In this document: positions 55,190 through 56,909 of the stretch, in pieces | Numbering within the stretch: position 1 is the stretch's first letter | Layout of the letters: each line of letters starts with the position of its first letter | Assembly: GCA_963818745.1 (NCBI GenBank) | Contig: CAWFTI010000001.1 | Span: 236,452 to 300,451 of the forward strand | Reading direction: 5' to 3' | Origin: Thermoplasmatota archaeon | Lineage (GTDB): Archaea > Thermoplasmatota > Thermoplasmata > UBA10834 | Length of the DNA stretch: 64,000 bases | Made by a program: the position numbers and the translations under genes | Notes under the pieces: model-generated | Told to the model about the DNA's origin: nothing | Databases searched by the model: none | Seen by the model: the letters and a program-made list of their open reading frames with translations, nothing else

Positions 55190-56909
55190 ATGTCTCTGCA
55201 CAAGATGCAACGGAACCTGAATGCTGACGAAGAAGGCGACATCGGTATCGGTACACTGATCATATTCATCGCGATCGTGCTGGTCGCAGCCATCGCCGCC
55301 TCACTCATATTGTACGCGGCAGCGTTGCTCCAGCAGCAGGCCCAGAAGACCGTGGATGAATCCGTTTCGGAGGTGTCCGGAGGGCTCGCGGTGATCAACA
55401 TAGCGGGTGACAGGAACCCGGCCGGTGCGGATTCCGTGATAGTCTCCGCGTACATGCCGTCGGCGGACGAACAGGCTCCTCTGGCAGGGGTTCTCTACAA
55501 TGTGACGGCCAGCGGGGACGGGACCTCCCCCCTCGTTATGGTTCTGAACTGGTCCTCCGCGACGGACTACGGTTCGGGGCTGTCCGAGGAGATAGTCTAC
55601 AGGACCTCGGTCTACGACCCGACCAACCCGTCATCGTTCAATGAGCAGGTCGCGAGGAACAGGCTCCTGACCCTCGACCAGATCGACTCCAGCTACGAGC
55701 TGGTCAGGTTCGATTCCGGCTTCGGGCCGGCAGTCCAATACTCCGACTACTCGGTAAGGGACGATAATGCCACATCGTACGCCTATGCCGTCGTGGGTGT
55801 CGACAATGCCGGGAACAGGGTCCTCTACGGGGCCATCGACAGCTCGGCATCGACTATCGACACGACCCAGGACGAAGACAGGACCGCGCCTTCCGGAGGT
55901 TCGATGACCAGCACGGCCAAGCCCGACGATTACTCTGTGGCCCTCTTCTGGGTGCCCGCGTCCGACGCGGGGAGCGGCGTCAATGCCCAGTACCTGTACA
56001 GGAGCGAGGTTTCCGTATCCGCCCCCGGGACGGTCGATCGTTGATGGCAGGACCAGGCTGGTCATGCCCGATGCGACGCTTCTGGCTGAATTCAACGCGA
56101 CGGTCTCGAGCTACGTCGATTCTCCGCCAGCAGTCGGAGATTACACGTACTTCGTCGTCGCAGAGGACAGCTCCGGCAACCAGGCGTACCTCGGCTCGCT
56201 CACGTACACCGCCACCGTCGCGGACAGCGGGTCCCCGACACCCGTTTCCGACCTATGCATGCATCAGTCCCTCCAGGCGGTCTCCCTGACATGGACGAGC
56301 GGCTCGGACGAGGAGACGGATGTCAGAGGATACTGTGTGTTCAGGGCGGCCAGCGTAGCCGAGCTCGACAGCATCGAGGAGCTGCTGTCGATGAGCCCGC
56401 TCGCAATGCTGGGGGCCGATGCGACCAGCTACGATGATTACTCTGGGTCGAGCGGGAGACTGTACTACTACACGGTCGTGACGGTCGATTCCGCAGGCAA
56501 CTACGCCCAGCCAGTCGTGGCCACGAACACCATTCAGATGATCGAGATCAAGGTGAAGACCGTTCCTGGGAGCGACCCGATCGTCTTCACCTCCCTCATG
56601 ATCGAGATCACCGACGGCGAGAGGGACGCGACGCTTCGGTTCAACGCCGGAACCTACGGCCCTGAGGGCGCCACCAACACGAGCTTCTCCGTCGAGATCC
56701 TGAGGGACCCGGACAGTGTGTTCGCAACCACGTATTCGCTCACAGACGGCGGCCTGGTCAAGATATTCATCGACGCGGGAGAGATCGGCCTGAACCTGCA
56801 CGCGGAGTCGTCGTTCATGATCAAGTTCATCCCGAGCTTCGGGCAGCCGACGATCGAGGAGTGCATGATCCCGTACCTCGGGACGTACAGGTACATCAAC
56901 CTGGTGTAA
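55190..56909 (+). CDS. arlB: giant archaellin (~570 aa) with three FN3-like domains inserted (one +1 frame break near 56.03 kb)
   Basis: N-terminus ..EEG|[23 protein letters not shown]-terminal archaellin core IQMIEIKVKTVPGSDPIVFTSLMIEITDG..KFIPSFGQPT. The ~355-aa insert carries three W..D.GSG..Y.(V/L)YR / Y.Y.V..D..GN repeats. The break lies at the C5G3 run at 56022. Confidence 0.8.

What the first reader, a model, noticed from the sequence alone, without database searches (positions are those of the whole stretch)
55190..56909. Giant archaellin carrying three FN3-like domains inserted into the archaellin core
The gene starts like a normal archaellin, with a class-III signal and the hydrophobic helix [20 protein letters not shown]. 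It ends like one too (IQMIEIKVKTVPGSDPIVF..KFIPSFGQPT). Between about 55460 and 56530, however, it holds ~355 aa made of three repeats. Each has an FN3-type signature: LVMVLNWSSATDYGSGLSEEIVYR..YAYAVVGVDNAGN; VALFWVPASDAGSGVNAQYLYR..YTYFVVAEDSSGN; VSLTWTSGSDEETDVRGYCVFR..YYYTVVTVDSAGN. The neighbouring arlB1 is about 205 aa. An insertion at this surface-exposed position would decorate the filament with adhesin-like modules, analogous to the domain-bearing giant flagellins of bacteria. I am not aware of a characterised archaellin with this architecture.
Basis: partly seen in the sequence, partly recalled or inferred. Interest (0 to 1): 0.7.

Follow-up and report, generated by a model that had tools for sequence, protein, structure and literature searches.

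The report
Archaellin carrying three FN3 domains
This is a 572-residue archaeal flagellum (archaellum) subunit with three fibronectin-III-like domains inserted into its surface-exposed head; it belongs to a conserved but undescribed family that also occurs in cultured Aciduliprofundum, and the break in this copy is most likely an assembly error.

Summary
Window 55190-56909 encodes one archaellin-type protein, split by a single extra base at 56035-56037 (not in the C5 run at 56022-56026). Removing that base gives a 572-aa protein: class III signal peptide, archaellin N-terminal helix, first head strands, three homologous FN3-like domains (residues 91-446, window 55460-56528), then the rest of the archaellin head.

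- **Intact relatives.** A 97%-identical 572-aa version lies on 13 public contigs in the same operon. Full-length relatives (538-745 aa) occur in at least 16 Thermoplasmata species, in DHVE2, and in cultured Aciduliprofundum boonei T469 and MAR08-339.
- **Frameshift.** dN/dS is about 0.1 on both sides of the break. Neighbouring genes in this window (AFOR, third archaellin, ArlI) carry similar indels. The frameshift is therefore probably an artefact.
- **FN3 fold.** AlphaFold/Foldseek and profile searches against solved structures support it. Pfam's fn3 model does not reach its cut-off.
- **Conservation.** The insert is about as conserved as the core.
- **Most likely role.** It is built into the archaellum, with the FN3 array forming an outer layer.
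- **Prior art.** The concept is known: Haloarcula marismortui sheathed archaella (2026). I found no description of an FN3 version.

Verdict: a new variant of a known kind, of moderate interest.

The parts
54978..54986 (+). TATA-box-like sequence (CATATATAC; CTTATATAA in relatives), about 205-212 nt upstream of the ATG. It implies an own promoter and a long 5' leader for the giant archaellin gene.
   Evidence: Conserved in 14 aligned species. Its function as a promoter is inferred, not shown.
55030..55055 (+). Conserved 26-nt leader element GGCACTATCCACAGGGCATGTAGACC, one of three copies in the locus.
   Evidence: three copies in the window, none expected by chance. The 18-nt core is exactly conserved at the same relative position in loci from the core clade whose proteins are only about 65% identical.
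55190..55237 (+). Class III signal peptide, MSLHKMQRNLNADEEG. Predicted cleavage after Gly16.
   Evidence: Sequence. The mature N-terminus [12 protein letters not shown] aligns with residue 2 onward of the solved M. villosus archaellin chain. Both paralogues in the operon have the same EG/RG-[DE] junction. Cleavage is inferred.
55238..55375 (+). Archaellin N-terminal hydrophobic alpha-helix (D0), residues 17-62.
   Evidence: PF01917 stretch 16-94. Profile match to archaellins 7ofq, 5z1l and 5o4u with E about 1e-22. AF2 helix 18-62. 87% mean identity within the clade.
55376..55459 (+). First strands of the archaellin head domain (D1a), residues 63-90, including the invariant NxAGDR motif.
   Evidence: AF2 strands 66-74 and 84-88. 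Aligns with ArlB-205 up to about residue 75-103. Invariant columns listed.
55460..55867 (+). FN3-like domain 1, residues 91-226. It has a helical insertion and is the most conserved of the three.
   Evidence: HHalign to repeats 2 and 3, E = 3e-15 and 8e-15. AF2 beta-sandwich with pLDDT about 90. 71% mean identity within the clade, equal to the head domain. No direct hit to PDB sequences.
55868..56219 (+). FN3-like domain 2, residues 227-343. It contains the frame break.
   Evidence: Profile region 289-392 matches neogenin FN3 with E = 2e-6.
56035..56037 (+). One extra base (GTCG[A]TCGTT) that shifts the frame. A TGA stop follows at 56042-56044.
   Evidence: Alignment with L001 DNA and P0001 protein. 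Absent from the 13 contigs that carry P0001.
56220..56528 (+). FN3-like domain 3, residues 344-446, with a short two-helix insertion.
   Evidence: AF2 on this window segment: pLDDT 89.7, pTM 0.81. Foldseek top 50 hits almost all FN3 domains: chitinase A1 FnIII TMt 0.71, titin 0.72-0.74, Sidekick-2 0.75. Profile against PDB sequences hits FN3 domains with E = 2.4e-6 to 5e-5.
56529..56909 (+). C-terminal part of the archaellin head domain (D1b), residues 447-572, plus the stop codon.
   Evidence: Second PF01917 stretch. Matches 7ofq_B 64-204 and 5ya6 FlaB1. BLASTP to ArlB-205 residues 87-194, E = 2e-6. Foldseek to archaellins: rmsd 2.1-3.6 A.
57064..57095 (+). Inverted copy of the leader element, inside a conserved structured RNA at the start of the third archaellin's leader. 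A TATA-like CTTTAAGATAT lies about 25 nt upstream, at about 57033-57043.
   Evidence: RNAalifold and pair counts: 99.5% of cells paired, 6 pairs with compensatory changes, 0 of 500 shuffles reach the observed values, and the G-U pairs fit only the + strand.
53695..54312 (+). Ordinary archaellin ArlB, 205 aa, first gene of the cluster.
   Evidence: PF01917, E = 2e-25, one stretch covering 16-187. A 205-aa orthologue is called in L001.
54343..54813 (+). ArlD/E-like protein, 156 aa, immediately upstream of the giant archaellin gene.
   Evidence: PF04659, E = 5e-18. Same position in L001-L004.
57432..58086 (+). Third archaellin, orthologue of a 210-aa ArlB. In this window it is broken by at least four frame switches.
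   Evidence: Three-frame translation against the intact L001 protein. Indel list.
58175..59368 (+). ArlC/D/E fusion protein, start of the motor and accessory genes. In the relatives these continue as ArlF-like, ArlG, ArlH, ArlI, a second T2SSE ATPase and ArlJ.
   Evidence: PF05377 plus PF04659. Gene calls in L001-L004.

Best explanation
The gene encodes a genuine ArlB-type archaellin paralogue. I propose this sequence of events:
1. The pre-protein is made with a class III signal peptide.
2. The archaellin/prepilin peptidase cuts it after Gly16.
3. The ArlH/I/J machinery encoded just downstream adds it to the base of the archaellum filament.
4. Its N-terminal helix packs in the filament core and its split beta-sandwich head forms the usual outer wall.
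5. A 356-residue array of three FN3 domains, inserted in the loop after the first head strands, projects from every such subunit.

The array would form an extra protein layer (a sheath or bristles) on the filament, or on a specialised segment of it. That layer would change thickness, stiffness and surface properties.

The gene has its own promoter and a long conserved leader, so it is probably regulated separately from the two ordinary archaellins beside it. The frameshift in this window is most likely an assembly or consensus error, not a feature of the organism.

**Shown:** one gene; archaellin ends; position of the insert; FN3 fold (predicted); conservation; operon context.
**Inferred:** signal-peptide cleavage; incorporation into the filament; surface exposure; any sheath or adhesion role; the separate promoter and separate regulation.
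For: **Archaellin identity**
- PF01917 matches both ends at 70.7 bits.
- The family profile matches solved archaellins with E about 1e-22.
- Foldseek superposes the core on 7ofq, 5ya6, 8rh5 and 5z1l at rmsd 2.1-3.6 A.

**One intact gene in nature**
- P0001 is 97% identical, 572 aa, on 13 contigs.
- 571-575-aa ORFs occur in at least 16 species-representative genomes.
- 538-546-aa orthologues occur in DHVE2, including two cultured strains.
- Further 582-745-aa lineages exist.

**Purifying selection across the break**
- dN/dS is 0.13 upstream and 0.11 downstream.

**Local indel errors in the window**
- AFOR has two indels.
- The third archaellin has at least four frame switches, yet each segment keeps a conserved protein sequence.
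- ArlI has one frame-shifting indel.

**Context**
- In the window and in L001-L004 the gene lies inside arlB - arlD/E - [giant] - arlB - arlC/D/E - F - G - H - I - J.

**Insert**
- Its position corresponds to ArlB-205 residues 76-86.
- The repeats are homologous to each other.
- The FN3 fold is supported.
- Identity within the clade is 0.71, 0.57 and 0.56 for the three FN3 domains, against 0.72 for the C-terminal head. All domains are 0.32-0.36 identical between clades. The insert is therefore under constraint similar to the core.

**Precedent**
- Haloarcula marismortui ArlA2/ArlB carry a domain inserted in the head. It forms a sheath and doubles the filament diameter to about 20 nm (PMC13357602).
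Against: - There is no expression, proteomic or imaging evidence for this protein in any organism.
- In Aciduliprofundum the gene stands alone, far from the arlF-J operon. Linkage to the motor genes is therefore not universal.
- Every genome examined also has ordinary archaellins of about 205-290 aa. The giant one need not be a major filament component.
- Three tandem FN3 domains must fold back for the chain to re-enter the head. I could not inspect model coordinates or inter-domain confidence; only pTM 0.66 is available.
- The frameshift is present in the sequence given. In this particular strain the gene could really be inactive.
Confidence: 0.62

Rival explanations
1. It is a minor, position-specific archaellin that builds only a short specialised part of the archaellum, such as the curved hook-like region near the cell or the tip. 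The FN3 array would give that segment different mechanics or a docking surface.
For: - The genomes carry 3-4 archaellin paralogues, of which this is one.
- The gene has its own TATA-like sequence and a long conserved leader.
- A. boonei, which has an orthologue, is reported to have archaella with 'very elegant hooks'. Hooks are rare outside Methanococcus, where a minor archaellin forms them (Jarrell review PMC10117864).
- High conservation of the insert suits a fixed structural role.
- PMC13357602 proposes that large archaellins are normally kept at low expression.
Against: - Nothing links this protein to the hook.
- The Methanococcus hook archaellin is of ordinary size (my own knowledge, not tested here).
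- This reading is not exclusive of the main explanation; it is a sub-case of 'incorporated into the archaellum'.
Confidence: 0.2
2. In this genome the gene is a real, recent pseudogene and part of a decaying motility locus. The locus would then make no FN3-bearing filament in this strain.
For: - The extra base at 56035-56037 is not in a homopolymer.
- The third archaellin and the motor ATPase ArlI are also frame-broken in the same window. This could be read as loss of motility.
Against: - A metabolic gene outside the locus (AFOR, 45639 and 45675) carries the same kind of single-base insertions.
- The third archaellin has at least four frame switches within 650 nt, yet each segment is still nearly identical in protein sequence to the relative. 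That pattern fits consensus errors, not evolutionary decay.
- dN/dS downstream of the break is 0.11.
- Thirteen contigs from other samples carry the intact 97%-identical gene.
Confidence: 0.15
3. It is not an archaellum component. It would be the subunit or tip adhesin of a separate type-IV-pilus-like adhesive filament, or a cell-surface protein that merely uses an archaellin-like anchor, with the FN3 domains acting as adhesion modules.
For: - In Aciduliprofundum the gene is stand-alone and these genomes have other type IV pilus loci.
- The FN3 repeats resemble those of very large (1-6 thousand aa) multi-FN3 surface proteins.
Against: - Both halves of the head domain are specifically archaellin-type: PF01917, arCOG01829, and structural matches to archaellins rather than pilins.
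- In the core clade the gene sits between two archaellin genes inside the arl operon in every locus checked.
- The N-terminal helix is 87% conserved and close to that of ordinary archaellins.
Confidence: 0.08

Closest known systems
Haloarcula marismortui large archaellins ArlA2 and ArlB (PDB 9v95, 9v96; Meshcheryakov et al., Nat Commun 2026, PMC13357602)
   Same: - An archaellin of more than twice the normal size.
- An extra beta-rich outer domain inserted within the head domain, with ordinary N-terminal helix and head on either side.
- Co-existence with normal-sized archaellins.
- In Haloarcula the insert forms a sheath around a standard core, giving filaments of about 20 nm.
   Different: - The Haloarcula insert is one bilobed domain of about 250 aa with no convincing structural homologue. 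Here it is three tandem, recognisable FN3 domains (356 aa).
- I found no sequence relationship between the inserts.
- The Haloarcula outer domain is much less conserved than the core (43% against 82%). Here the insert is about as conserved as the core.
- The lineages differ: Halobacteria against Thermoplasmata/DHVE2.
- Assembly into a filament is shown for Haloarcula only.
Ordinary euryarchaeal archaellins with solved filament structures (M. villosus ArlB1/B2 7ofq, M. maripaludis 5z1l, P. furiosus 5o4u, M. jannaschii FlaB1 5ya6, Oxyplasma meridianum ArlB 8rh5)
   Same: - Class III signal peptide.
- Conserved hydrophobic helix.
- Beta-sandwich head: profile E about 1e-19 to 1e-23, Foldseek rmsd 2.1-3.6 A.
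- Genes in an arl cluster.
   Different: - Those proteins are 165-254 aa without an inserted domain.
- O. meridianum has only a 28-residue 'barb' sub-domain (PMC12448462).
Bacterial flagellins with large or extra outer domains (giant flagellins; sheath-forming outer-domain dimers)
   Same: The logic is analogous: a conserved polymerising core with variable extra domains inserted in the surface-exposed middle. These alter filament thickness, waveform or adhesion (as discussed in PMC13357602).
   Different: - There is no homology. Bacterial flagellin and archaellin are unrelated proteins assembled by unrelated machines.
- This is an analogy only.
Prokaryotic FN3 domains of secreted enzymes and giant surface proteins (e.g. 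Bacillus circulans chitinase A1 FnIII domain 1k85; PelI N-terminal domain 3b4n/3b8y)
   Same: - Same fold and the same sequence signature: D-x-x-x-P linker, W in strand B, Y-x-Y-x-V-x-A-x-D-x-A-G-N.
- Profile E = 2e-6 to 5e-5; TM 0.6-0.75.
- Many 1-6 thousand aa multi-FN3 proteins match the repeats.
   Different: Those domains are spacers or binding modules in enzymes and adhesins with ordinary secretion signals. Here they are embedded inside a filament subunit.

Membership tests
Archaellin (ArlA/ArlB; Pfam PF01917, arCOG01829) | Class III signal peptide followed by a conserved hydrophobic N-terminal helix | tested here: met
   The sequence reads ...ADEEG|[22 protein letters not shown]. It aligns residue for residue with the N-termini of solved archaellins. 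AF2 predicts a helix at 18-62. Cleavage itself was not tested.
Archaellin (ArlA/ArlB; Pfam PF01917, arCOG01829) | Match to the family profile above the curated threshold | tested here: met
   PF01917 scores 70.7 bits against a cut-off of 29.5, in two stretches. All 34 relatives match. The Aciduliprofundum orthologue is listed under arCOG01829 in Makarova et al. 2016 Table S4.
Archaellin (ArlA/ArlB; Pfam PF01917, arCOG01829) | Beta-sandwich head domain like that of solved archaellins | tested here: met
   Foldseek on the predicted model: 7ofq_B TMt 0.55 at rmsd 2.1 A; 5ya6_B 0.68 at 2.5 A; 8rh5_A 0.50 at 2.6 A. This rests on a predicted structure.
Archaellin (ArlA/ArlB; Pfam PF01917, arCOG01829) | Encoded with the archaellum assembly and motor genes (arlC/D/E, F, G, H, I, J) | tested here: met
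   Met in the window and in L001-L004. In Aciduliprofundum the gene is stand-alone while arlF-J lie elsewhere in the genome.
Archaellin (ArlA/ArlB; Pfam PF01917, arCOG01829) | Polymerises into a rotating filament | not testable with these tools
   This needs purification of archaella and mass spectrometry or cryo-EM, for example in A. boonei T469.
Fibronectin type III domain (Pfam PF00041) | Match to PF00041 at Pfam's gathering threshold | tested here: not met
   The window protein gives no fn3 hit at E <= 1. Its best hits are Big_3_4 at 0.015 and Big_13 at 0.34. Only 7 of 34 relatives give weak fn3 hits, best E = 1.3e-3. Two DHVE2 members (P0067, P0068) carry precomputed PF00041 hits.
Fibronectin type III domain (Pfam PF00041) | Seven-stranded FN3 beta-sandwich fold | tested here: met
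   Repeat 3 model: pLDDT 89.7, pTM 0.81. Foldseek top hits are nearly all FN3 domains with TM 0.6-0.75. The full-length model hits tandem FN3 arrays with E about 1e-9. Repeats 1 and 2 are homologous to repeat 3. This rests on predicted structures.
Fibronectin type III domain (Pfam PF00041) | Significant profile-to-sequence similarity to experimentally solved FN3 domains | tested here: met
   Repeat 3 profile: FN3 of a DUF3472 protein 2.4e-6, neogenin 9e-6, chitinase A1 FnIII 4.8e-5, titin 2e-3. Full profile: neogenin 2.2e-6. Repeat 1 alone gives no hit.
Sheathed large archaellins of the Haloarcula type | Extra domain inserted within the head domain, flanked by normal archaellin parts | tested here: met
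   The insert replaces the segment equivalent to ArlB-205 residues 76-86.
Sheathed large archaellins of the Haloarcula type | Outer domain homologous to Haloarcula D2 | tested here: not met
   A profile of head strands plus repeat 1 finds nothing in PDB sequences, 9v95/9v96 included. The match of the full profile to 9v95/9v96 is explained by the shared archaellin N-terminus. The two entries are absent from the Foldseek top 50.
Sheathed large archaellins of the Haloarcula type | Outer domains form a continuous sheath that doubles the filament diameter | not testable with these tools
   This needs cryo-EM. My rough volume estimate (inference) is that three FN3 domains per 5.5 A rise need an outer diameter of about 17 nm or more.

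The most novel reading that the evidence does not exclude
These archaea build a second kind of sheathed archaellum, evolved independently of the Haloarcula one. A conserved shell of three FN3 domains per subunit surrounds a standard core. Production of this subunit would be switched against the ordinary archaellins by an RNA mechanism: the giant gene's 5' leader carries a 26-nt element that is perfectly complementary to the start of the next archaellin's leader, and is predicted to pair in cis with its own start-codon region.
Probability: 0.2. Interest if true: 0.75.

Novelty: new variant of a known kind. Interest (0 to 1): 0.5.

Why it matters
Archaella were long thought to be uniform filaments of about 10 nm built from subunits of about 200 aa. 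The first sheathed archaellum structure (Haloarcula) appeared only in 2026, and its outer domain has no recognisable fold.

- **What this family offers.** It supplies a second, independent solution with a well-understood modular fold. It is conserved from freshwater and sediment Thermoplasmata to deep-sea vent DHVE2, and it is present in two cultured strains, which makes the question directly testable.
- **If the FN3 array forms a shell.** It would show convergent 'outer-domain' evolution within archaella as well as between archaella and bacterial flagella. It would also offer a natural scaffold for displaying domains on an archaeal filament.
- **The leader element.** The conserved, orientation-flipped element shared by the three archaellin genes hints at a regulatory switch between filament types.

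Tried and rejected
1. **Frameshift in the C5 run at 56022-56026.** Rejected. Alignment to P0001 and L001 puts the extra base at 56035-56037.
2. **Two separate genes.** Rejected. Intact single ORFs occur in dozens of genomes.
3. **Homology between the insert and the Haloarcula D2 outer domain.** This was suggested by a long HMMER stretch to 9v95. Rejected. A profile without the N-terminal helix finds nothing in PDB sequences.
4. **Pfam fn3 membership by threshold.** Not met.
5. **The small 117-119-aa gene after the Aciduliprofundum orthologue as a mini ArlD/E.** Inconclusive. There is only a 17-residue motif match (pairwise E = 0.002) and no PF04659 hit.
6. **The three copies of the conserved element as ends of an invertible DNA segment.** No support. 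The giant gene and its neighbours keep the same orientation in the gene-called loci (L001-L004). In the other core-clade loci the element copies keep the same relative positions and orientations. No recombinase gene was called within 10 kb either side in L001/L002.
7. **Rfam.** No known RNA family in 52800-58300.
8. **Literature searches for an FN3 or Ig-bearing archaellin.** None found. The supplement of PMC13357602 that shows predicted large archaellins is not held, so I cannot exclude that a member of this family is pictured there.
9. **Geometry of the three FN3 domains relative to the core.** I could not inspect it, because model coordinates are not returned.
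Full report
**1. What is in the sequence**

Window 55190-56909 holds two overlapping ORFs in different frames: 55190-56044 (284 aa) and 55983-56909 (308 aa). The first begins like an archaellin and the second ends like one.

A search of the protein collection with a frame-joined translation returned 39 hits. About 33 are full-length proteins of 567-578 aa with 61-71% identity. One, P0001, is 97% identical over all 572 residues.

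Aligning P0001 and its DNA (locus L001) with the window shows that the break is one extra base in GTCG[A]TCGTT at 56035-56037, next to one substitution. It is not in the C5 run I first suspected.

**2. Is the frameshift real?**

The window from 45184 to 64000 aligns with L001 at 95.0% nucleotide identity with 39 gap openings. Against intact genes in L001, the window carries frame-breaking indels in four genes:
- the aldehyde:ferredoxin oxidoreductase gene (45639 and 45675);
- the giant archaellin (56037);
- the third archaellin (at least four frame switches between 57660 and 58030);
- ArlI (62428).

In the third archaellin every out-of-frame segment still translates to a sequence nearly identical to the relative. 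Evolutionary decay would not leave that pattern.

For the giant gene, dN/dS against L001 is 0.13 upstream and 0.11 downstream of the break. P0001 itself lies on 13 contigs from several samples.

I conclude, with roughly 80% confidence, that the break is an assembly or consensus artefact. Only the reads can settle it.

**3. Anatomy of the 572-aa protein**

| Part | Residues | Window coordinates |
|---|---|---|
| Signal peptide (MSLHKMQRNLNADEEG) | 1-16 | 55190-55237 |
| Hydrophobic helix | 17-62 | 55238-55375 |
| First head strands, invariant NxAGDR motif | 63-90 | 55376-55459 |
| Repeat 1 | 91-226 | 55460-55867 |
| Repeat 2 | 227-343 | 55868-56219 |
| Repeat 3 | 344-446 | 56220-56528 |
| Remainder of the head | 447-572 | 56529-56906 |

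The coordinates were checked by translation.

- Pfam PF01917 matches in two stretches at 70.7 bits against a cut-off of 29.5.
- BLASTP against the neighbouring 205-aa ArlB aligns giant residues 8-105 with ArlB 8-103 (42% identity). It aligns giant 453-561 with ArlB 87-194. The 356-residue insert thus replaces about ten residues after the first head strand.
- A profile of the family matches solved archaellins (7ofq, 5z1l, 5o4u, 8rh5) with E = 1e-19 to 1e-23, in the same split fashion.

**4. The insert is three FN3 domains**

- *Homology of the repeats.* HHalign gives E = 3e-15, 8e-15 and 1e-10 between the repeats, and nothing against the archaellin head.
- *Full-length model.* AlphaFold2 on a 34-sequence alignment gives mean pLDDT 85.2 and pTM 0.66. 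It shows a long helix, three beta-sandwich domains and the archaellin head.
- *Full-length Foldseek.* Against the PDB it returns tandem FN3 arrays (contactin FN1-3, LAR FN1-4, titin, fibronectin 10-12; E about 1e-9). It also returns archaellins, with rmsd 2.1-3.6 A.
- *Repeat 3 alone.* Folded from the window's own sequence it gives pLDDT 89.7 and pTM 0.81. It hits almost only FN3 domains: chitinase A1 FnIII TMt 0.71, titin 0.72-0.74, Sidekick-2 0.75.
- *Profile searches.* The repeat 3 profile matches solved FN3 sequences with E = 2.4e-6 to 5e-5.
- *Pfam.* The fn3 model does not reach threshold on this protein. It gives weak hits in only 7 of 34 relatives, although a few DHVE2 members carry precomputed PF00041 hits.

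The domains are divergent prokaryote-type FN3, with the motifs D-x-x-x-P, W, and Y-x-Y-x-V-x-A-x-D-x-A-G-N.

**5. Distribution**

- Intact 571-575-aa orthologues occur in at least 16 species-representative Thermoplasmata MAGs. These include isolate UBA10834 and three closed MAG chromosomes.
- Proteins of 538-546 aa with the same architecture and 31-33% identity occur throughout the DHVE2 group. They include the cultured Aciduliprofundum boonei T469 ('hypothetical protein ABOONEI_32') and Aciduliprofundum sp. MAR08-339 ('archaeal flagellin').
- An exhaustive profile search of 1.84 billion cluster representatives adds further lineages of 582-745 aa (P0078, P0089, P0090, P0096, P0104). All have signal peptide, GDR motif, FN3-like repeats and archaellin C-terminus.
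- The same search shows that the repeats resemble those of very large multi-FN3 proteins.
- Within the core clade, mean identity is 0.87 (helix), 0.75 (first head strands), 0.71, 0.57 and 0.56 (FN3-1, -2, -3) and 0.72 (C-terminal head). Between the clades every domain is 0.32-0.36 identical. The insert is not a hypervariable surface region.

**6. Context**

In the window and in L001-L004 the order is: HTH regulator - arlB (205) - arlD/E-like (156) - giant archaellin - arlB (210) - arlC/D/E - ArlF-like - ArlG - ArlH - ArlI - second T2SSE ATPase - ArlJ.

In Aciduliprofundum the same modules are scattered. The giant gene stands alone, followed by a conserved basic protein of 117-119 aa. Three other archaellins (289, 206 and 212 aa) lie with FlaD, with FlaC, and with FlaF-J respectively. 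The giant archaellin is therefore always one of several paralogues. Genomics alone cannot say whether it is a major or a minor filament component.

**7. How it most likely works**

The steps below are inference unless marked.
- The pre-protein is cut after Gly16 by the class III signal peptidase. The junction EG|D is shared with the two small paralogues (shown by sequence).
- The subunit is added at the filament base by ArlH/I/J. The helix packs in the core and the split head forms the usual wall.
- The three FN3 domains leave and re-enter the head at one loop, so they must lie on the outside.
- At a rise of about 5.5 A per subunit, three FN3 domains (about 38 kDa) per subunit need a shell reaching a diameter of roughly 17 nm or more. 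This is my estimate.
- That would resemble the 20-nm sheathed archaella of Haloarcula marismortui, whose ArlA2 and ArlB carry a different inserted domain (PMC13357602).
- FN3-1 is as conserved as the head, so it probably contacts the core or neighbouring subunits. FN3-2 and FN3-3 are somewhat freer.

Rival readings, each with its own test in the rival-explanation section:
- a segment-specific minor archaellin, for example the 'very elegant hooks' reported for A. boonei;
- a real pseudogene in this strain;
- a non-archaellum adhesive filament.

**8. Comparison with what is known**

The kind 'large archaellin with an outer domain inserted in the head' is known and structurally characterised. The 2026 paper states that such proteins occur in various archaea and that their role is unknown.

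The Aciduliprofundum member was already counted as an archaellin in 2016. I found no paper that describes FN3 or Ig-like domains in an archaellin, or this family as such. The relevant supplementary figure of the 2026 paper is not held.

Hence: a new variant of a known kind, of moderate interest. What raises it is the deep conservation, the recognisable modular fold, and the presence in culturable strains.

**9. Side finding**

*Three copies of one element.* A 23-29-nt element (ACTATCCACAGGGCATGTAGACC) occurs three times in the locus:
- 53483-53505;
- 55033-55055, which is 135 nt before the giant gene's ATG;
- 57070-57092, inverted, between the giant gene and the third archaellin.

None is expected by chance.

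*Conservation.* The 18-nt core is exactly conserved at the same positions in loci from the core clade whose proteins are only about 65% identical.

*Promoter-like sequences.* A conserved TATA-like box lies about 55 nt upstream of the copy before the giant gene. Another lies about 25 nt upstream of the inverted copy.

*RNA structure around the inverted copy.*
- It sits in an RNA structure with a 12-bp hairpin in which 6 pairs show compensatory changes.
- 99.5% of cells are paired, and 0 of 500 shuffles reach the observed values.
- The G-U pairs fit only the + strand.

*The giant gene's own leader.* The element is predicted to pair with a conserved CAUGCCCU and with the start-codon region. All those columns are invariant, so there is no covariation evidence for that pairing.

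*Known families and interpretation.* No Rfam family matches. Two explanations remain open. The element could be a binding site for the HTH regulator encoded just upstream. Alternatively, the leaders of the paralogous archaellin mRNAs, which are complementary over 26-29 nt, could pair with each other.

Noticed in passing
window 53483-53511 (+), 55030-55055 (+), 57064-57095 (inverted); same positions in L001-L022: A 23-29-nt element (ACTATCCACAGGGCATGTAGACC) lies upstream of each of the three archaellin genes, and the third copy is inverted. Its 18-nt core is exactly conserved across species whose proteins are about 65% identical. The two copies flanking the giant gene are perfectly complementary over 26 nt. 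It could be a binding site for a regulator, or the basis of RNA-RNA pairing between archaellin leaders.
   Followed up: partly
window 57064-57130 (+): A conserved structured RNA lies at the start of the third archaellin's leader. It has an invariant outer stem GAGAGAG/CUCUCUC, a hairpin formed by the element itself, and a 12-bp hairpin with 6 covarying pairs (0 of 500 shuffles reach the observed values). It has no Rfam match.
   Followed up: partly
window 45639, 45675 (AFOR); 57660-58030 (third archaellin); 62428 (ArlI): Against a 95%-identical relative, this window carries frame-breaking single-base indels, mostly insertions, in several genes besides the one in the finding. The third archaellin has at least four frame switches with the protein sequence preserved in each segment. 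This points to local consensus errors in the assembly.
   Followed up: partly
window 61731-63366 and about 63580-64000; L001 16535-18169 and 18383-20032: In the relatives the arl operon holds two tandem T2SSE-type ATPase genes (544 and 549 aa) between ArlH and ArlJ, instead of a single ArlI.
   Followed up: no
window 52903-53244 (+): A small HTH protein (113 aa, weak PF12840 HTH_20 hit on the L001 orthologue) is encoded directly upstream of the archaellum cluster. It is conserved in that position in L001-L003. It is a candidate regulator for the repeated element; the analogy to the methanococcal activator EarA is from memory and untested.
   Followed up: no
L084 11630-11989; L085 11651-12004; L023 11654-12019: In Aciduliprofundum and DHVE2 MAGs the giant archaellin gene stands alone. 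About 10 nt downstream follows a conserved, very basic protein of 117-119 aa (arCOG05803). This protein shares only a short GYYE.IGW motif with the ArlD/E-like protein that precedes the giant gene in the window (pairwise E = 0.002; no Pfam support).
   Followed up: partly
window 54343-54813 and 58175-59368: There are two ArlD/E-domain genes in one cluster: a short one (156 aa) between the first archaellin and the giant one, and an ArlC/D/E fusion (397 aa) after the third archaellin. Aciduliprofundum shows the same pairing of archaellin genes with FlaD and FlaC genes, but at separate loci.
   Followed up: no
proteins P0073-P0077 and many others: The FN3 repeats of this archaellin family give very strong multi-stretch matches (10-39 stretches) to proteins of 1,000-6,000 aa. 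This suggests the repeats were recruited from giant multi-FN3 surface proteins. The organisms carrying those proteins are unknown.
   Followed up: no
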